Notes under the pieces: model-generated
What the model saw: the letters and a program-made list of their open reading frames with translations, nothing else
Database searches by the model: none
Told to the model about the DNA's origin: nothing
Assembly (NCBI GenBank): GCA_963666565.1
Contig: OY762911.1
Coordinates: 736,001 to 800,000, forward strand
Direction: 5' to 3'
From: Thermoanaerobaculia bacterium
GTDB lineage: Bacteria; Acidobacteriota; Thermoanaerobaculia; Multivoradales; Multivoraceae
Length of the DNA stretch: 64,000 bases
Made by a program: the position numbers and the translations under genes
Part shown: one piece after another, positions 2,610 to 9,150 of the stretch
Numbering within the stretch: position 1 is the stretch's first letter
Layout: every line of letters starts with the position of its first letter

Positions 2610-4226
2610 TCAGGCGCCCCAGACGGTCACGGGCCGGCCGCCGAGGGACTCCTCGCGACGGTAGAGCTTCTCCTCCCACGGCTTCGACGCGTCCCGGTCG
2701 AAGATCACCAGGTGGCCCGACTCGGCGCCGCACTTGTCCATGTAGGCCAGGGTCTGCTCCAGGCCCTCGCGGATCGTCGCCTCCAGGCCGCCGCGCAGGA
2801 TCTTGCACTCCACGACGTAGCGGCGCGCCGGCACGCCGGGCTCGGCGGCGCCGGCGAAGCGGCCCGGCGGCCACACGATCAGCAGGTCCGTCCGGCGGCT
2901 GCCCAGCGCGTACTCCCGCTCGATCCGGCCGCCGCCGTTCACGATCCGCTGGAGGAACGTCTGCAGAATCAACTGCGGACCCGCCTCCTTGTACTGGAAC
3001 CGCTCGAGCCAGTGCTCCGAGTGTTCGCGGAAGAAGCGCTGAAACGCCGCCAGCAAGCCCTCCGCGTCCAGGTCGCCGTCCGGCTTCACGTACCACTCCG
3101 TCTCCTGGACGATCTCCGACTCGCGGGCGTACATGAGTTCCCGCGGGATCACTTCGCGGTAGATCGGATTGGCGATCTTCGCCGTGCCGCGCCTCGTCAG
3201 CAGACCCAGGTCCCGAACGTACTCCACGTCGTTCGAGCTGGCCATGTCCGTCCCGTTCGCGGCGCCGCCGCTCAGCACCGGCTCGACCACGCGCCGCACA
3301 CGCTCCTCCCGGAGCTTGTCCGCCAACTGGTGCAGGTGGGTCTGGCGGCTCAGGATCAACTCCTCGCGCGCCTCCATGATCTCTTCCTCGTCGATCGTCC
3401 GGGAGCGGTCCCGGTTCGCCCTGTTTCTGAAACAGGCCTGGTAGGCCAGCGCGTTCACCAGCCACGGCTGGCCCCGGGACTGGTCCCACACTGCGGCGAC
3501 CGCGCCCTCGGTGAACTCCTGACCCGTCTCCTCCGCGTGCTGACCGAGCAGCGTGCGGACGTCCGCCTCGTCGAAGTCGCCGAGCCGCAGCGACTCCGCC
3601 TTGATGTTGAAGGCGCTGCCGCCGGCGATGATCTCGCCCGCCGACTCCGAGTGGATGCGGTAGTCCCGCACGTCGCGGATGCCGCAGAGGATGACGCTCT
3701 GAGGAAACGCGGCCGGCCGTTGATCGTAGCCGGCGCGCAACTGGCGGAGCACGGAGATCAGGGTGTCGCCGACCAGCGCGTCGATCTCGTCGATCATCAA
3801 CACGAGGGGCTTGGCGTCGGCCAGCGACCAGCGACCCAGGGCCAACCGCAGCGCTCCGTGCGGCCCGGCGCGCGTCAGCGCCTCTTCCCACATGCCGTCC
3901 AGGAAGGCGTCGCCATGCGCAACGAGCGCCCGTTCGGAGATCTCGGCCAGCACCGTTCGTATTCCCTCCGCGACATCGCCTCGCGCGGTCTGCGCGGTCT
4001 CGACGTTCGCGTACACGCAGCGGTGTTCGCCGCCCTCGTTCAGCAGGTCGCGCAACGCGAGCAGCGCCGAGGTCTTCCCGGTCTGGCGCGGCGCGTGCAG
4101 CACGAAGTAGCGCTCGTCCCGGATGAGGCGCAGAACCTCGTCGAGGTCGAACCGCTCAAGCGGCGGGATGCTGTAGTGCTTGGCCGGAACCACCGGCCCG
4201 GTGGTGTTGAAGAATCGCTCGGTCAT
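2610..4226 (-). CDS. AAA-like ATPase with C-terminal PD-(D/E)XK nuclease domain
   Basis: FFNTTGP start, HAPRQTGKTS Walker A, LMIDEID Walker B, EREYALGSRRTDLLI...VVECK nuclease motif. Confidence 0.88.
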   Translation of the reverse strand: MTERFFNTTGPVVPAKHYSIPPLERFDLDEVLRLIRDERYFVLHAPRQTGKTSALLALRDLLNEGGEHRCVYANVETAQTARGDVAEGIRTVLAEISERALVAHGDAFLDGMWEEALTRAGPHGALRLALGRWSLADAKPLVLMIDEIDALVGDTLISVLRQLRAGYDQRPAAFPQSVILCGIRDVRDYRIHSESAGEIIAGGSAFNIKAESLRLGDFDEADVRTLLGQHAEETGQEFTEGAVAAVWDQSRGQPWLVNALAYQACFRNRANRDRSRTIDEEEIMEAREELILSRQTHLHQLADKLREERVRRVVEPVLSGGAANGTDMASSNDVEYVRDLGLLTRRGTAKIANPIYREVIPRELMYARESEIVQETEWYVKPDGDLDAEGLLAAFQRFFREHSEHWLERFQYKEAGPQLILQTFLQRIVNGGGRIEREYALGSRRTDLLIVWPPGRFAGAAEPGVPARRYVVECKILRGGLEATIREGLEQTLAYMDKCGAESGHLVIFDRDASKPWEEKLYRREESLGGRPVTVWGA

Positions 4227-4447
4227 CGGCTTCGGCTCGCCGTCTTGGCGACTCCTCTCCGCATCGTAGCGCGTGCCGCCCGCCGGGTGCGCGGGTCTTC
4301 CGACCCGCTTCCGGGCGCAGCCGCGAAAGCGGCGGAGACCGGAGAGAATGGACGCCGCATGGGTAATGGGATGGTCCGCCCCGCCCTCTACGGCCTCTTG
4401 TAGGGCCAGAATGGGTTTTTCCCAACCAACAAGGGAGGAGACGGACC

Positions 4448-5506
4448 ATGAAGAAGGTTACTCGAGTCGGTATCGATCTGGGCAAGCGCCTGTTCCAGGT
4501 GTGCGCGATGGACTCGTCGGGCGCGGTGGTGTTTCAGCGTCAGGTGAAGGCGTCGGGGCTGATGGAGTTGATGGTGCAGCTCGAGCCGTGCCTGGTGGGC
4601 ATGGAGGCGAGCTGCGGCGCGCACTACTGGGTGGAGAAGCTGAGCGCTCTGGGTCACGACGCGCGGATGATGAGTCCTCAGTTCGTGCGGCCTTACGTGA
4701 AGTCGAACAAGAGCGACTACCACGACGCGGAGGCGATCTGCGAGGCGGTGTCCCGTCCGACGATGCGTTTCGTGCCGTACAAGACGAAGGAGCAGCGTGC
4801 TCTTCAGCAGGTTCATCGGAGCCGGGAGGCGGCGCTTCGCCGTCGCACGCAGTTGGTGAACCAGTTGCGGGGATTCCTGGGCGAGTACGGGATCGTGCTG
4901 CGTCAGGGCCGGGCGGTGGTCATGCGGGCGGTGCCCGACATCGCGAGCGACGCGGAGCGCGAGCTGCCGGGTCAGTTTCGCGCGCTGCTGTGGATGCAGT
5001 ACGAGGCTCTGATGCAGGTCCACAAGGAGGTCGAGGACCTGACCGCGATGCTGGTGCGGGAGTCGAAGGAGAACCCTCACTGCCAGCGTCTGATGTCGAT
5101 TCCGGGCATCGGTCCGATCGTGGCGACGGCGATCGTGGCGGCGGTGGGCAACGGCTGGGCTTTCAGCAGCGGTCGTCAGATGTCGGCCTGGATGGGCTTG
5201 GTGCCGCGTCAGGACTCGACCGGGGGTCGCACGGTGCTGCGCGGGATCAGCAAGCGCGGCGACCGTTACCTGCGCTCGCTCCTGATCCACGGTGCGCGGG
5301 CGGTCCTGCGCACGGCGGCGAAGGGCGAGCGAACGCGGCTGAAGGGCTGGGCGCTCGACGTCAAGCGGCGCCGGGGGCCGAACGTCGCCACGGTGGCACT
5401 GGCCAACAAGCTGGGCCGCATCGCCTGGGCGGTGCTTCGCCGCGGCGAGCTGTACCGCGACGACCGCCTCGCCGGGTCTCGGCAGAAGGTCTCTCGGGCC
5501 GCGTAG
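4448..5506 (+). CDS. IS110/IS1111 DEDD transposase (recombinase)
   Basis: VGIDLGK, GMEASCGAHYW, KSDYHDAEAI, IPGIGPI, GLVPRQDSTGG (catalytic Ser), ISKRGDRYLR. Confidence 0.97.
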   Translation: MKKVTRVGIDLGKRLFQVCAMDSSGAVVFQRQVKASGLMELMVQLEPCLVGMEASCGAHYWVEKLSALGHDARMMSPQFVRPYVKSNKSDYHDAEAICEAVSRPTMRFVPYKTKEQRALQQVHRSREAALRRRTQLVNQLRGFLGEYGIVLRQGRAVVMRAVPDIASDAERELPGQFRALLWMQYEALMQVHKEVEDLTAMLVRESKENPHCQRLMSIPGIGPIVATAIVAAVGNGWAFSSGRQMSAWMGLVPRQDSTGGRTVLRGISKRGDRYLRSLLIHGARAVLRTAAKGERTRLKGWALDVKRRRGPNVATVALANKLGRIAWAVLRRGELYRDDRLAGSRQKVSRAA

Positions 5507-5559
5507 CAGGCGGCTCGATCCACATCGAATCAACCAAGGAGGATTGCCCCACCAAGTCG

Positions 5560-5775
5560 TTGCGAGGACACAACGGAGCGATGGCGAAACAGGTCGGACC
5601 GGCGCGTCGAGAGCCTGAACCCGCGCAGGGCCATTCAACAGGCCGTCTGGGTGTACAGAAGAGACGACGCGCGCGTATTCCATCGGGGCCAGGGAGCTCG
5701 AAACCACGAGACGCCCAACAACAGGCCGAATACATGCAAGCAACGACACCTCTCTCGCCGGAACTCCGGAAAGTG
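5560..5775 (+). ncRNA. Putative bridge/seekRNA of the IS1111 element (ends approximate)
   Basis: Stem GCGCGTCG/CGACGCGC (5602-5609 and 5665-5672) encloses ACCCGCGCA (5619-5627) and CTGGGTG (5647-5653), which match both REP strands; a second loop has ATTCCATC and ATACAT matching the IS end junction. Confidence 0.8.
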
Positions 5776-5778
5776 CCC

Positions 5779-5804
5779 TTGCACAAGCGGGGCGGACCAT
5801 ACAT
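5779..5804 (+). promoter_or_regulatory. -35 half of circle-junction promoter
   Basis: TTGCAC (5779-5784), a 17-bp spacer, then CAT, completed to CATAAT by left-end AAT (4365-4367) on circularisation. Confidence 0.75.
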
Positions 5805-6045
5805 GCGCGGGTCTTCTGACCCGCTTCCGGGCGCAGCCGCGAAAGCGGCGGAGACCGGAGAGAATGGACGCCGCATGGGTGCGCGGGTCTTCCGACCCGC
5901 ATCGGTGCGCGGGTTTTCTGACCCGCTTTCCGCCGCAGGCGGCGGCCAGTATCGTCGCCGGCCTCCGGCCGGCGTCCATTCCCCCCGGCCTCCGCCGCTT
6001 CGCGGCGGCGCCCGGATGCGGGTCGGAAGACCCGCGCACCCAGCG
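5804..6045. repeat. REP array plus type-A REPIN right of the IS
   Basis: 76-bp unit repeated left (4285-4360) and right (5804-5879) of the IS, then further REPs and an inverted REP. Confidence 0.9.
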
Positions 6046-6098
6046 GGCAACCAGCGGATAGGCTCGGCGGCGCCACTTCGACACCCAGGGAGACCGCC

Positions 6099-6434
6099 AT
6101 GACCGACACCGCCGCCGCCGTCGACGACATCTTCGCCCGGATGCCCGGCCGCCTGGACCCGCAGGCCGCCGCGGGCCTCGACGTCGTGATCCAGTTCGAC
6201 CTCTCGGGCGAGGGCGGCGGCGTCCGGCACTGCGCGATCAAGGACGGCGCCTGCACCGTCGGCGAGGGCGCCCACGACGCGCCGACGATGACCCTGTCGA
6301 TGGAGGCCGCCGACTACGTCGCGCTCATTTCCGGCGAGCTGGACGGCACCGTCGCCTTCATGAGCGGGAAGCTGCGGATCGACGGCGACATGGGGCTGGC
6401 GATGCGGATGCAGAGCCTGTTTCGCACCGACTGA
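6099..6434 (+). CDS. SCP2 sterol-binding domain protein
   Basis: IQFDLSGEGGG...AFMSGKLRIDGDMGLAMRMQSLF. Confidence 0.92.
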   Translation: MTDTAAAVDDIFARMPGRLDPQAAAGLDVVIQFDLSGEGGGVRHCAIKDGACTVGEGAHDAPTMTLSMEAADYVALISGELDGTVAFMSGKLRIDGDMGLAMRMQSLFRTD

Positions 6435-6555: not shown

Positions 6556-8955
6556 CTATGGCGGCTCGAAGCCGAGAACCTCGCCGTAGAAGGCGAGCTC
6601 CGCCTCCAGCGCGCGGACGATGTTCCCGGCGCGGCGAAAGCCGTGCTGCTCGCCTTCGAAGAGGTGGTAGTCGACGCGGACGCCCTTGGCGCGCAGCGCC
6701 TCGACCATCGCCTCGGCCTGGTTCGGCGGCACGATGCGGTCTTCGTCGCCCTGGAAGAAGATGACGGGGCAGGAGAAGCGGTCGCGGGCTTCGAGCGGCG
6801 AGCGCTCGCGGTAGAGGTCGGCGCGCTCCGGGTAGGGGCCGACCAGGCCGTCGAGGTAGCGGGACTCGAACTTGTGGGTGTCGCGGGCGAGGGCGGCGAG
6901 ATCGGCGACGCCGTAGTGGCTGGCGCCGGCGGCGAAGGTGTCCGTGAAGGCGAGCGCGGCGAGGGTGCTGTAGCCGCCGGCGCTGCCGCCGCGGATGAGC
7001 AGCCTGGCCGGGTCGGCCTCGCCGCGGGCGGCCAGGGCCTCGGCGGCGGCGGCGCAGTCCTCGACGTCGACGATGCCCCAGCGGCCGCGCAGCGACTCGC
7101 GGTAGGCGCTGCCGTAGCCGGTGCTGCCGCCGTAGTTCACGTCGACGACGGCGAAGCCGCGCGAGGTCCAGAACTGGACGCCGGGGTCGTGGACGTGCTC
7201 GGCGGCGGAGGTCGGGCCGCCATGGCTCATGACGATGAGCGGCGGGCGGGCGCCGGCGGGCGGCGTGACGTCGTCGTTCTTCGGCGGGTAGAAGAACGCG
7301 AACGCGCGGCGGCCGCCGGCCGACGGGAACTCGATGTGCCGGCCGGTGGAGAGATAGCGGGGGTCCGGGGCCTGGCCGGTCGTGACGAGGACGTCGAGCT
7401 CGGGCGCGGCGGGATCCGCCAGCGAGAGGCGGACGATCTCCGCCGGCCGATCCGGCGCGCCGCCGAGGAAGAAGACGGAAGGCACCCCACTGGGTGCAGC
7501 CGAGCGGCCACTGGGTGCGCGGGTCTCCTGACCTCCGCTGGGTGCGCGGGTCTTCCGACCCGCATCCGTCCCACTGGGTGCGCGGGTCTTCCGACCCGCA
7601 TCCGCCCCGCTGGGTGCGCGGGTCTTCCGACCCGCATCCGCCCCGCTGGGTGCGCGGGTCTTCCGACCCGCATCCGCCCCACTGGGTGCGCGGGTCTTCC
7701 GACCCGCATCCGCCCCACTGGGTGCGCGGGTCTTCCGACCCGCATCCGCCCCACTGGGTGCGCGGGTCTTCTGACCCGCAACCGGCCCGGCAGAGCGCCC
7801 GATCGAAGTGTAAGGCGTCGCAATGCGGATCGGCCGCGGGGCTTCTCCGCCATCCCGTGCCTCCGGCAGGAACTCGAGCCCCCAGCCCCCCCGCTCGCAA
7901 CAGGCGGCGACGATGCCGCCCGGCACGTGCGCGTACGTGGACGTGCCGAAGACCCAGGGCGGCCGGCCGAACTCGGCGTCGCGGGGGCAGAGCGGCTCGA
8001 CCTTCGCCGATGCGGCACGGTACAGGTTCCACCAGCCGCCGCGGTCGGAGACGAAGACGAGGCGGCCGCGGGAGTCGAAGCTCGGCTGCTGGACGGCCTC
8101 GGGCCGGTCCGGGTCGCCGCCGGCGACGACGCGCGCCGCCTGGGGCAGACCGTCCTCGTCCAGGTCGGCCAGATGGAGCGTCGTCGTGTCCCACGGCATG
8201 TCGGGGTGGTTCCAGCTCAGCCAGGCGAGGCGGTTGCCGCCTGGCGAGAGGCGCGGCGAGCTGAAGAAGTCCGCGCCGGAGACGAGTGCGACGGGGCGCG
8301 GAGGCTCGACGGCACCGGGCGATTCGACGGCGCCGGGCGGCTCGATGACACCGGACAGATCCGCCGGCAAGGCGATCGCGACCAGGGAAGCGACTTCGTC
8401 GCCGCCGTCCGGGCCGGGGCGTTCCTGGACCGCGATCAGGCGGTGGCGGTGACTGTCGAAGACGAGATCGGCGTAGCGGGCGCCGTCGGCCGGGGTCAGG
8501 GGGACGGCGGCGTCCGCGGCACTCGCTCCAGCGGCGGTGAGGTAAACGCGCTGATCGGCGAAGTTGACGAAGGCGTGGAGGAGCGGCTCGGGCTCGCCGC
8601 TTCGCGGCGTCGCGCTCGATGCGGGCCAGAAGGCCCGCGCACCGACCCGTGTGGCGCCGGCAGTCGATGCGGCGGCGCCGAGCAGGCAGAAGGCGCCGCC
8701 GCCGTATTCGTGGACGCGGCTGCGCACGTCGAAGCCCTCGGGCGTCAGCGTGCGGACGCCGCCGTCCGGGTCGCGGCAGACGAGGACGTTGCGGCCGCCC
8801 TCCTCGGGCCGCCGCTCCAGCCAGCAGACGAACTCGCCCAGCACGGCGAGGTCGTCGATGCGGCGGCCGCCTTCCGCGACGGACCGCGCCGAGATCGGCG
8901 ACGGCCAGGCGCCGTAGGGGACGGCGGCGGCGCCGCGTGGTGGATCGTCAGCCAT
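6556..8955 (-). CDS. S9 family peptidase (acylaminoacyl/dipeptidyl peptidase) with in-frame REP insertions
   Basis: PYGAWPSPIS, HGGPT, GGSAGG nucleophile, QGDED..VP, GEQHGFR; start taken as ATG 8955. Confidence 0.93.
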   Translation of the reverse strand: MADDPPRGAAAVPYGAWPSPISARSVAEGGRRIDDLAVLGEFVCWLERRPEEGGRNVLVCRDPDGGVRTLTPEGFDVRSRVHEYGGGAFCLLGAAASTAGATRVGARAFWPASSATPRSGEPEPLLHAFVNFADQRVYLTAAGASAADAAVPLTPADGARYADLVFDSHRHRLIAVQERPGPDGGDEVASLVAIALPADLSGVIEPPGAVESPGAVEPPRPVALVSGADFFSSPRLSPGGNRLAWLSWNHPDMPWDTTTLHLADLDEDGLPQAARVVAGGDPDRPEAVQQPSFDSRGRLVFVSDRGGWWNLYRAASAKVEPLCPRDAEFGRPPWVFGTSTYAHVPGGIVAACCERGGWGLEFLPEARDGGEAPRPIRIATPYTSIGRSAGPVAGQKTRAPSGADAGRKTRAPSGADAGRKTRAPSGADAGRKTRAPSGADAGRKTRAPSGADAGRKTRAPSGTDAGRKTRAPSGGQETRAPSGRSAAPSGVPSVFFLGGAPDRPAEIVRLSLADPAAPELDVLVTTGQAPDPRYLSTGRHIEFPSAGGRRAFAFFYPPKNDDVTPPAGARPPLIVMSHGGPTSAAEHVHDPGVQFWTSRGFAVVDVNYGGSTGYGSAYRESLRGRWGIVDVEDCAAAAEALAARGEADPARLLIRGGSAGGYSTLAALAFTDTFAAGASHYGVADLAALARDTHKFESRYLDGLVGPYPERADLYRERSPLEARDRFSCPVIFFQGDEDRIVPPNQAEAMVEALRAKGVRVDYHLFEGEQHGFRRAGNIVRALEAELAFYGEVLGFEPP
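7488..7782. repeat. Tandem REP array, 36-bp unit, in frame in the S9 peptidase
   Basis: 7 full units plus 1 degenerate unit; encodes repeated [12 protein letters not shown]. Confidence 0.95.
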
Positions 8956-8974
8956 TGGCGAAGCGTAACCGGCC

Positions 8975-9150
8975 CACTGGGTGCGGCTGGGTGCCGCTGG
9001 CGCCACTGGGTGCGCGGGTCTTCTGACCCGCATCGGGCAGAGGCGCGAAGCGGCGGCGCCCGGAGAAGAAGGCCGCCGGCCAAAGGCCGGCGACGATGTC
9101 CTTCGCCGCCATGCGGGTCGGAAAGACCCGCGCACCCAGCGGCACCCGGT
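8975..9150. repeat. Leader-only repeats plus type-A REPIN
   Basis: CTGGGTGC repeats followed by an inverted REP pair at about 9007-9138. Confidence 0.88.

What the first reader, a model, noticed from the sequence alone, without database searches (positions are those of the whole stretch)
5600..5675. Readable bridge/seekRNA target loop programmed against the host REP consensus
Seen: outer stem GCGCGTCG (5602-5609)/CGACGCGC (5665-5672) and inner stem GGCC (5629-5632)/GGCC (5641-5644). The two single-stranded arms are ACCCGCGCA (5619-5627), the reverse complement of TGCGCGGGT right of the insertion point, and CTGGGTG (5647-5653), the REP sequence left of it. The left guide matches the REP consensus CTGGGT better than this actual site (ATGGGT), implying one tolerated mismatch. 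Known: IS110/IS1111 recombinases use such bipartite RNA guides. Inference: a natural RNA-guided recombinase with target CTGGGTGCGCGGGT and a candidate reprogrammable tool.
Basis: partly seen in the sequence, partly recalled or inferred. Interest (0 to 1): 0.92.

Follow-up and report, generated by a model that had tools for sequence, protein, structure and literature searches.

The report
REP-targeting IS1111 element's guide RNA loop

Summary
They lie in the 297-nt non-coding region downstream of a 352-aa IS110/IS1111-type transposase, inside a 1440-bp element (4364-5803) with 12-bp subterminal inverted repeats and 7-nt/3-nt terminal extensions.

The genome has 5 identical copies. All 5 have TGCGCGGGT on the right. 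Four have CTGGG on the left; this copy has ATGGG. The 14-mer target occurs 526 times in the genome against 0.31 expected.

- **Covariation within the clade:** relatives 81-85% identical in DNA carry five alleles of the 5' arm, each fitting its own right flank. At 46 distinct insertion sites, 28 pair perfectly, 15 have one G·U, 2 have one mismatch and 1 is an outlier.
- **Covariation across the family:** in 76 metagenome elements with the same scaffold, both arms covary with their flanks (0 of 10000 permutations reach the observed score).
- **Structure:** the stems covary and the arm-to-arm pairing does not.

Arm order and overlap match published IS1111 seekRNAs. REP-targeting relatives such as ISPa11 and ISPpu10 are already described. 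No RNA data were available. Verdict: real, correctly read, and a new member of a known kind.

The parts
4364..5803 (+). Whole IS1111-family insertion sequence, 1440 bp. The T at 4364/5804 could belong to either side; boundaries follow the family's 7-nt/3-nt rule.
   Evidence: 5 identical copies in the genome. Flanks diverge outside these limits in 40 full-length copies. An uninterrupted copy of the same site lies at 5875-5888.
4359..4363 (+). Left half of the target at this copy: ATGGG (consensus CTGGG).
4364..4370 (+). Left terminal extension TAATGGG (7 nt).
   Evidence: The 7-nt left/3-nt right rule is from Siddiquee 2024, a passage of the introduction. TAATGGG precedes the left repeat in most scaffold relatives.
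4371..4382 (+). Left subterminal inverted repeat ATGGTCCGCCCC.
   Evidence: Reverse complement of 5789-5800.
4448..5506 (+). Transposase gene, 352 aa, DEDD/RuvC-like N-terminal domain plus IS110-type C-terminal domain. Contains GLVPRQDSTG.
   Evidence: PF01548 at 4.1e-20 and PF02371 at 7.6e-24. Translation. Motif definition.
5592..5604 (+). Invariant 5' handle GGTCGGACCGGCG of the RNA scaffold.
   Evidence: Invariant in 9 clade variants. It was a fixed part of the scan pattern that fetched the metagenome relatives, so its identity there is not independent.
5602..5609 (+). Outer stem, 5' strand.
   Evidence: Pairs with 5665-5672. 5 of its 8 pairs show changes on both sides across 18 sequences.
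5619..5627 (+). 5' guide arm ACCCGCGCA (right-target guide). [quoted passage not shown]
   Evidence: Five alleles track the right flank. Family-wide permutation test 0 of 10000.
5629..5644 (+). Inner hairpin GGCC-loop-GGCC separating the two arms.
   Evidence: 97.2% of cells paired in 18 sequences. Almost invariant, so it carries no covariation signal.
5647..5653 (+). 3' guide arm CTGGG+TG (left-target guide). Same sense as the top strand, so it pairs with the bottom strand.
   Evidence: 44 of 45 left flanks are CTGGG. This position covaries with left flanks across the family, 0 of 10000. The trailing T[G/A] is constant in all groups.
5665..5672 (+). Outer stem, 3' strand.
5673..5745 (+). Second loop, the likely donor-binding loop: 5' arm with CCAT (5680-5683), stem GGCC 5687-5690 with 5724-5727 enclosing a hairpin, and 3' arm ATACATGC 5730-5737.
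   Evidence: ATACATGC equals the right end plus the first flank bases. The triplet in this arm equals the right terminal extension in 65 of 68 relatives, with four different triplets. The role of the 5' arm is unresolved.
5779..5784 (+). -35-like TTGCAC. It lies 17 nt before CA (5802-5803), which in a circularised element would abut TAAT (4364-4367) to give a -10-like hexamer.
   Evidence: The same geometry (TTGC-type hexamer, 16-17 nt spacer) holds in 63 of 68 relatives. A junction promoter is reported for ISEc11 (passage). Inferred here, not shown.
5789..5803 (+). Right subterminal inverted repeat GGGGCGGACCAT (5789-5800) plus the 3-nt extension ACA.
5804..5824 (+). Right half of the target, TGCGCGGGT (5804-5812), running into the REP hairpin GCGGGTC-TTCT-GACCCGC (5807-5824).
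   Evidence: All 5 own copies share it. The 14-mer occurs 526 times in the genome.

Best explanation
The region 5592-5745 encodes the guide RNA (seekRNA, also called bridge RNA) of an IS1111-family insertion sequence spanning 4364-5803. It lies on the same strand as the transposase gene and downstream of it.

The flagged part (5602-5672) is the target-binding loop. A covarying outer stem and a GGCC/GGCC inner hairpin hold two single-stranded arms.
[quoted passage not shown] - The two footprints overlap at TG, next to the crossover.

A second loop (5673-5745) reads the element's own right end. Guided this way, the DEDD transposase inserts a circular copy of the element at CTGGG^TGCGCGGGT, the 5' edge of the host's REP hairpin.

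Shown here: the anatomy, the site specificity and the guide/target covariation. Inferred from the family: that the molecule is an RNA bound by the transposase, that a circular intermediate forms, and the strand-exchange chemistry.
For: 1. **Family anatomy.**
   - PF01548 and PF02371 both hit, and the GL-P----TG motif is in the translation.
   - The subterminal repeats are 12 bp, with 7-nt and 3-nt extensions.
   - The long non-coding region is downstream: 297 nt against 84 nt upstream.
2. **Site specificity.**
   - There are 5 identical copies, all at REPs.
   - The target 14-mer occurs 526 times against 0.31 expected.
3. **Guide grammar.**
   - The top-strand complement lies 5' of the bottom-strand complement, and they overlap on the target, as published for IS1111 seekRNAs.
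   - This also fits the LTG/RTG core overlap of IS621.
4. **Natural reprogramming inside the clade** (81-85% nt identity).
   - Arm alleles ACCCGCGCA, GCCCGCGCA, GUCGGCGCA, GCCGGCGCA and GCCGCCGCA sit beside TGCGCGGGT, TGCGCGG(GC/GT/AC), TGCGCCG(AC/GC), TGCGCCGGC and TGCGCCGGC respectively.
   - Of 46 sites, 28 are fully Watson-Crick, 15 have one G·U, 2 have one mismatch and 1 is an outlier.
   - The host of the GUCGGCGCA allele has 420 sites matching CTGGGTGCGCSGRY. The first 100 listed are all of the CCGGC, CCGAC or CCGAT type. The same host has 0 sites of the window's type.
5. **Family-wide covariation** in metagenome elements sharing the scaffold.
   - 5' arm against right flank: mean run 4.74 against 2.13 permuted, 0 of 10000. 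With one element per class: 5.27 against 1.72, 0 of 10000.
   - 3' arm against left flank: 4.78 against 2.31, 0 of 10000. With one per class: 4.58 against 1.77, 0 of 10000.
6. **Structure.**
   - 91.1% of cells pair against 80.2% in shuffles (0 of 500), and 21-51% when the partner columns are slid.
   - 5 of the 8 outer-stem pairs change on both sides.
   - Ten G·U cells in that stem would be A·C on the opposite strand, which favours a plus-strand transcript.
7. **Donor loop.** Its triplet matches the right extension in 65 of 68 elements.
Against: - No transcript was observed. No RNA run was listed, so expression is untested.
- No sigma-70-like promoter or terminator was found around it.
- The fold of the whole non-coding region is no more stable than shuffles (z = -0.70).
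- RNAalifold on the close relatives pairs the two arms with each other. This pairing is not conserved across the family (43.3% against 41.1% shuffled).
- The overlap 'TG' does not behave as a clean duplicated core. The left junction reads CTGGG-TA and the right reads ACA-TG in all copies, so the exact crossover is unresolved.
- One copy in a relative (L062) has a right flank that does not fit its guide.
- The metagenome relatives were selected with a pattern containing the scaffold. That selection says nothing about arms or flanks, but it does fix part of the stem context.
Confidence: 0.88

Rival explanations
1. The similarity is a by-product of REP-like sequence. The non-coding region merely contains GC-rich REP-like fragments, or a hairpin whose two sides happen to resemble the REP, with no guiding role.
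For: - Unanchored matches of this length are not rare in shuffles: 951 and 4401 of 20000.
- The two arms are partly complementary to each other (ACCC with GGGU), and RNAalifold pairs them.
- The genome is 70% G+C with hundreds of REPs.
Against: - The junction-anchored arms in the right order never occur in 100000 shuffles.
- Arm changes follow flank changes in five alleles and across the family.
- Arm-to-arm pairing is not conserved.
- Relatives with non-REP targets carry the same scaffold with other arms.
Confidence: 0.02
2. The conserved hairpin acts as DNA, not RNA. It would be a structured single-stranded or cruciform site in the element that the transposase binds and that pairs with the target during transposition.
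For: - Nothing here shows a transcript.
- G·T pairs can also form in single-stranded DNA of the same strand.
Against: - In every family member tested so far, the specificity determinant is an RNA that co-purifies with the transposase. I saw this for ISEc11, ISPa11, ISKpn4 and ISPst6 (passages) and for IS621.
- Ten G·U cells in the outer stem rule out a symmetric duplex or cruciform.
Confidence: 0.04
3. The guide module is a fossil. The element in this genome no longer moves, or its site choice is set by the protein recognising the REP hairpin, and the RNA match is a leftover.
For: - Only 5 of about 530 perfect sites are occupied.
- A preprint reports that for ISPpu10 a target stem-loop is a second specificity determinant beside base pairing (abstract only).
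- All right flanks in the clade keep hairpin potential.
Against: - Five copies are 100% identical over 1451 bases, and the reading frame is intact.
- Sister species carry 1 to 21 or more copies with guide alleles adapted to their own REP variants. That requires selection on the guide.
- A hairpin requirement would add to the RNA match, not replace it.
Confidence: 0.05

Closest known systems
ISPa11 (IS1111 family, Pseudomonas aeruginosa) and its 96-nt seekRNA (Siddiquee et al. 2024, PMC11187229; I read sections 6, 9, 10 and 13 plus passages)
   Same: - DEDD transposase and subterminal inverted repeats.
- Guide RNA encoded downstream of the transposase gene.
[quoted passage not shown]
- The target is the host's REP.
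   Different: - The host is a Thermoanaerobaculia / 'Candidatus Multivorans'-like acidobacterium, judged from the record titles of relatives.
- The best annotated plasmid-borne transposases are at most about 50% identical.
- No experiment exists for this element.
ISEc11 / ISXne4 natural re-direction (same paper, section 10)
   Same: Related elements keep the stem and differ in the target-matching segments, and their insertion sites differ to match.
   Different: Here the series is finer. There are five alleles differing by 1-3 bases in elements 81-85% identical. They follow REP sub-families of sister species, and one allele covers two REP variants through a G·U pair (14 and 8 sites).
IS621 bridge RNA (IS110 group; Durrant et al. 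2024, PMC11208160; Hiraizumi et al. 2024, PMC11208158; passages read)
   Same: - Two internal loops, each with a left guide (bottom strand) and a right guide (top strand) that overlap at the core.
- The second loop reads the element's own ends.
   Different: - The RNA lies downstream, not upstream.
- The order of the two guides in the loop is reversed.
- The subterminal repeats are long.
- There is no clean duplicated core dinucleotide: TA at the left junction, TG at the right.
- The 5' arm of the second loop could not be matched convincingly to the left end.
ISPpu10 (REP/stem-loop target, Pseudomonas putida; bridge RNA predicted in Durrant 2024 Extended Data Fig. 10 legend; preprint 10.64898/2026.03.19.712850, abstract only)
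   Same: RNA-guided element of this family whose sites are copies of a conserved intergenic repeat with a GC-rich stem-loop.
   Different: - In the window the hairpin lies 3' of the insertion point and overlaps the right-guide footprint.
- Whether the hairpin itself is sensed is untested.

Membership tests
IS1111 family (within IS110 in ISfinder) | DEDD (RuvC-like) N-terminal transposase domain plus the IS110-type C-terminal domain | tested here: met
   PF01548 (72.6 bits, cut-off 29) and PF02371 (84.4 bits, cut-off 21.3).
IS1111 family (within IS110 in ISfinder) | C-terminal GL-P----S/T-G motif and transposase length about 330-350 aa (Siddiquee 2024, section 6) | tested here: met
   GLVPRQDSTG is in the 352-aa translation. 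I read it by eye and did not align it to reference proteins.
IS1111 family (within IS110 in ISfinder) | Subterminal inverted repeats of about 11-13 bp with asymmetric terminal extensions (7 or 6 nt left, 3 nt right) | tested here: met
   ATGGTCCGCCCC at 4371-4382 with GGGGCGGACCAT at 5789-5800. Extensions are TAATGGG and ACA. One T is ambiguous between element and target.
IS1111 family (within IS110 in ISfinder) | The longer non-coding region lies downstream of the transposase gene | tested here: met
   297 nt downstream (5507-5803) against 84 nt upstream (4364-4447).
IS1111 family (within IS110 in ISfinder) | Sequence-specific insertion in one orientation without a target duplication | tested here: met
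   46 distinct sites of the clade. 45 have TGCGC at the right and 45 of 45 readable left flanks have [C/A]TGGG. No direct repeat beyond the ambiguous T.
IS1111 family (within IS110 in ISfinder) | Circular intermediate, often with a promoter assembled at the junction | tested here: inconclusive
   Sequence only. TTGCAC, a 17-nt spacer, then CA plus TAAT would form a promoter-like site. The geometry is kept in 63 of 68 relatives. No circle junction was seen in the contigs laid.
seekRNA / bridge RNA | [quoted passage not shown] | tested here: met
   5619-5627 and 5647-5653, with overlap TG. Definition.
seekRNA / bridge RNA | Guide segments change with the target in related elements while the stems are kept | tested here: met
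seekRNA / bridge RNA | A second (donor) loop complementary to the element's ends | tested here: inconclusive
   The 3' arm tracks the right extension in 65 of 68 elements. The 5' arm shows only CCAT against ATGG of the left extension, and its core-facing bases do not fit TA (my reading output).
seekRNA / bridge RNA | The region is transcribed, and the RNA binds the transposase and is required for transposition | not testable with these tools
   No RNA run was listed. No promoter-like site was found.
Any Rfam family | Covariance-model match at gathering score | tested here: not met
   Best hits over 4200-6100 are all far below gathering score (E of 2.3 or more). None of the hits is a bridge RNA or seekRNA family.

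The most novel reading that the evidence does not exclude
The element's guide co-evolves with its host's REP repertoire. Sister species with different REP stems carry the same element with 1-3 compensating base changes in the right-target guide. One allele (GUCGGCGCA) uses a U opposite G or A to cover two REP sub-families at once.

In addition, the 3' arm of the second loop reads across the right end into the first 2-4 bases of the flank (window TGC; relatives TGAA, TGAC, TGGC). In other words, it reads the integrated or post-exchange junction and not the circle junction. That would be an IS1111-specific 'handshake' or excision guide, placed on the opposite arm from the one described for IS621.
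Probability: 0.4. Interest if true: 0.5.

Novelty: new member of a known kind. Interest (0 to 1): 0.35.

Why it matters
This does not reveal a new mechanism. Its value is as a clean natural data set for a system now used in genome engineering.
- It gives 46 insertion sites with five guide alleles in near-identical elements.
- It gives more than 20 further guide classes on one conserved scaffold from metagenomes.
- These show which positions tolerate G·U or mismatches: position 8 of the right guide and the outermost base of the left guide.
- They also show that both arms and the right-end reader of the donor loop are the variable parts.

It extends RNA-guided IS1111 elements and REP targeting to uncultured Acidobacteriota (Thermoanaerobaculia). 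It also shows a mobile element tracking the divergence of its host's REP family.

Tried and rejected
**Searches and tests that gave nothing**
- **Rfam**: no meaningful hit.
- **Fold energy of the non-coding region**: not different from shuffles.
- **Promoter/terminator scan**: 0 promoter-like sites, and 1 terminator-like site inside the transposase gene on the minus strand.
- **RNA evidence:** no RNA holder was listed.
- **Contigs of four DNA runs laid on 3900-6300**:
  - Only short unitigs were returned.
  - No contig bridges an empty site or a circle junction.
  - The listed joints (for example 4305 to 5805) have short sides of 20-27 letters in REP sequence, so I read them as REP-to-REP joins from other loci.
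  - Depths were not used.
- **blastn of 5560-5804:** no match against complete E. coli genomes. Against plasmids there were only weak partial matches (19 records, none covering 80% of the query). I therefore could not align the scaffold to an experimentally studied element.

**Analyses dropped or left open**
- **Distant relatives** (35-42% aa identity) in G085, G181 and G198 were fetched and their ends located. They have a different subterminal repeat, and I did not decode their guides, so I dropped them.
- **The crossover.** I tried to define a duplicated core dinucleotide. GT, TG and AT all fail against the two junctions, and only one T is shared. The crossover position is left open.
- **The 5' arm of the second loop.** I considered it as the complement of the left end. 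Beyond CCAT with ATGG, the fit needs wobbles, and one variant (GTACTCC) breaks it. Left open.

**Limits of the material**
- The first end-finding patterns for the metagenome loci were too strict: 30 rows and wrong ends. One search replaced them.
- In one search, 8 of 76 scaffold-bearing loci had no usable right end and were left out. Four of the 80 loci (L097, L113, L126, L167) matched the scan pattern by chance and were left out.
They hold the ISPa11 and ISEc11 RNA sequences and Durrant's table of predicted bridge RNAs, so a direct comparison was not possible.

Full report
**What is there.** The window carries a 1440-bp insertion sequence at 4364-5803 on the plus strand.
- Its only gene (4448-5506, 352 aa) has both domains of IS110/IS1111 transposases: PF01548 at 4.1e-20 and PF02371 at 7.6e-24.
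- The translation contains GLVPRQDSTG. This fits the GL-P----S/T-G motif that Siddiquee et al. give for IS1111 transposases (section 6).
- The ends are ATGGTCCGCCCC (4371-4382) and its reverse complement (5789-5800). They are preceded by TAATGGG and followed by ACA. This is the '7 bp left, 3 bp right' arrangement of IS1111 members (passage).
- The long non-coding region is downstream of the gene: 297 nt against 84 nt upstream.

**The observation.**
- The element sits between two 76-bp tandem units that each contain a REP. The next unit boundary (5875-5888) is an intact copy of the same site, ATGGG|TGCGCGGGT. The bases left of TAATGGG are therefore target and not element.
- The genome holds 5 copies that are 100% identical over 1451 bases. 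All 5 have TGCGCGGGTC on the right.
- Four have CTGGG on the left. Only the window's copy has ATGGG.
- The 14-mer CTGGGTGCGCGGGT occurs 526 times in the 4.79-Mb genome, against 0.31 expected from composition.

**Chance.**
- Taken loosely, such matches are not rare. In dinucleotide shuffles of the 281-nt non-coding region, a 9-mer or longer complementary to a 22-nt target appears in 951 of 20000 shuffles. A 7-mer or longer in the same sense appears in 4401, and both appear in 219.
Each exact junction-anchored arm appears in about 0.5% of shuffles (487 and 512 of 100000). They never appear together in this order within 5-80 nt (0 of 100000).
- The fold of the whole region is not unusually stable (z = -0.70).

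**Close relatives give a natural swap experiment.**
- A scan of one genome per species found 50 loci. All those encoding a protein 75% or more identical are in Thermoanaerobaculia, 'Candidatus Multivorans' or Vicinamibacteraceae metagenome-assembled genomes.
- Forty full-length copies, the 5 own included, fall into 11 sequence variants that are 81-85% identical to the window's element from end to end.
- The 3' arm CTGGGTG and the left flank CTGGG are constant. The 5' arm is not.
- With further copies, there are 46 distinct insertion sites and five arm alleles:

| 5' arm allele | Right flank | Sites | Pairing |
|---|---|---|---|
| ACCCGCGCA | TGCGCGGGT | 17 | all Watson-Crick |
| GUCGGCGCA | TGCGCCGAC | 8 | perfect |
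| GUCGGCGCA | TGCGCCGGC | 14 | one U·G |
| GCCGGCGCA | TGCGCCGGC | 2 | perfect |
| GCCCGCGCA | TGCGCGGGC / TGCGCGGGT / TGCGCGGAC | 1 each | perfect / one wobble / one mismatch |
| GCCGCCGCA | TGCGCCGGC | 1 | one mismatch |
| GUCGGCGCA (L062) | flank does not fit | 1 | outlier |

- In total, 28 sites are perfect, 15 have one wobble, 2 have one mismatch and 1 is an outlier.
- The host of the GUCGGCGCA allele has 420 sites matching CTGGGTGCGCSGRY. The first 100 listed are all of the CCGGC, CCGAC or CCGAT type. That host has no site of the window's type.
- Four hosts of other alleles have 29-69 sites of the window's type.
- The guide therefore follows each host's own REP.

**A wider family with one scaffold.**
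- A metagenome scan used the conserved handle and spacing only, with the arms left free.
- Of these, 76 carry the full scaffold and 68 also have a readable right end.
- They have many different arms and different targets, including a large group of about 1.31-kb elements inserted at CCAGC|GATAG-like sites.
- The 5' arm covaries with the right flank. Over 77 unique pairs, the mean run of identity is 4.74 against 2.13 after permuting flanks (0 of 10000 permutations reach it). With one element per arm class (22 classes) it is 5.27 against 1.72, again 0 of 10000.
- The 3' arm covaries with the left flank. Over 49 unique pairs it is 4.78 against 2.31 (0 of 10000). With 12 classes it is 4.58 against 1.77 (0 of 10000).
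- Relatedness inflates such tests. The one-per-class versions are the safer figures.

**Structure.**
- 91.1% of cells form pairs, against 80.2% in shuffles (0 of 500) and 21-51% when the partner columns are slid.
- 5 of the 8 outer-stem pairs change on both sides. The GGCC/GGCC hairpin is almost invariant, so it is uninformative.
- Ten G·U cells in the outer stem would be A·C on the other strand. This favours a plus-strand single-stranded molecule.
- RNAalifold on the close relatives also pairs the two arms with each other. Across the family that pairing is at chance level: 43.3% against 41.1%, with 181 of 500 shuffles as high. I read it as a side effect of the GGGT repeat inside this particular target.

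**Mechanism.**
- The arrangement is the one published for IS1111 seekRNAs. The segment complementary to the top strand comes first, the segment complementary to the bottom strand comes second, and they overlap on the target (Siddiquee 2024, section 9).
- It also corresponds to the left- and right-target guides of the IS621 bridge RNA, which both include the core (Durrant 2024 passage).
- Here the overlap is TG, and insertion is at CTGGG^TGCGCGGGT, at the 5' foot of the REP hairpin.
- A second loop follows at 5673-5745. Its 3' arm ATACATGC equals the last five bases of the element plus the first three of the flank.
- In the wider family, the triplet at this position equals the right terminal extension in 65 of 68 elements: AGA 52, ATA 7, ACA 4, ATG 2. 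One differs, and two were not found by the pattern.
- This second loop is therefore the donor-reading loop, at least for the right end. The following 2-4 bases often repeat the start of the right flank (mean run 1.18 against 0.85 permuted, 0 of 10000).
- The 5' arm of this loop and the exact crossover remain unresolved. The left junction reads TA where the right one reads TG.
- A -35-like TTGCAC lies 17 nt before the last two bases of the element. In a circle these would abut TAAT. The geometry is kept in 63 of 68 relatives, in line with the junction promoter reported for ISEc11 (passage).
- The RNA nature, the binding to the transposase and the circle are all inferred from the family and not shown here.

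**What is known, and novelty.**
- RNA-guided targeting by IS110/IS1111 elements was published in 2024.
- ISPa11, a REP-targeting IS1111 member, has an experimentally recovered seekRNA.
- ISPpu10 and ISPa11 are among six elements with predicted bridge RNAs in Durrant et al. (Extended Data Fig. 10 legend).
- A 2026 preprint adds a target stem-loop requirement for ISPpu10 (abstract only).
- A full-text search for Thermoanaerobaculia or Multivorans together with these terms listed no paper holding either name. All 12 papers listed, out of 28 found, show 0 occurrences.
- The best annotated plasmid-borne transposases are about 49% identical, and all 5000 best-scoring records are below 60%.
- This is a new member of a known kind, in a phylum where it had not been described in the papers I could search.

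**Verdict.** I put 0.88 on a functional seekRNA/bridge-RNA target loop. Interest is moderate to low at 0.35. The mechanism is known. The natural allelic series and the conserved scaffold are useful material for working out design rules, but a specialist would not be surprised.

Noticed in passing
window 4287-4363 and 5804-5888: The element sits inside a tandem array of 76-bp units, each a REP hairpin plus a spacer. The next unit boundary (5875-5888) is an unoccupied, identical copy of the insertion site.
   Followed up: partly
window about 7490-7780 (inside ORF 6556-9135, minus strand): A run of REP-like units is read through in frame inside an 859-aa ORF. It gives about seven repeats of a 12-residue peptide (…[12 protein letters not shown]…) in the middle of what looks like a peptidase-type protein (translation). 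Either a REP array is tolerated inside a gene, or two genes are falsely joined.
   Followed up: no
window 5656-5662: CAGAAGA, just 3' of the left guide, is complementary to the REP loop region TCTTCTG. It is present only in the window's own variant, which has a 2-nt insertion here. It may be chance.
   Followed up: no
L062 (relative's genome, same host as L017): One copy of the GUCGGCGCA-allele element has a right flank TGCCTCAGG that does not fit its guide (3 mismatches, 2 wobbles). This is either an off-target insertion or a later rearrangement.
   Followed up: no
L098-L176 (metagenome contigs): A large, widespread group of about 1311-1324-bp elements uses the same RNA scaffold. They insert at CCAGC|GATAG- or GGTAG-like sites. 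Within that group, some elements have switched the right guide to other targets, such as L150 and L127 (TGTACTGC, TGTAGATG).
   Followed up: partly
window 5779-5803 with 4364-4367: A split promoter-like site (-35-like TTGCAC, 17-nt spacer, -10-like hexamer half from each end) would form only in a circularised element. The geometry is conserved in 63 of 68 relatives.
   Followed up: partly
window 2610-4226 (minus strand): A 538-aa AAA-type ATPase ORF (PF13401, PF13191 and PF14516; only PF13401 clears its curated cut-off) ends 138 nt from the element's left end. No link to the element is apparent.
   Followed up: no
G000 whole genome: Besides 526 sites of the window's target type, the genome has 51 sites of the CTGGGTGCGCCGGC type. 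That type is used by the sister-species alleles, and none of the 5 copies here occupies one.
   Followed up: partly
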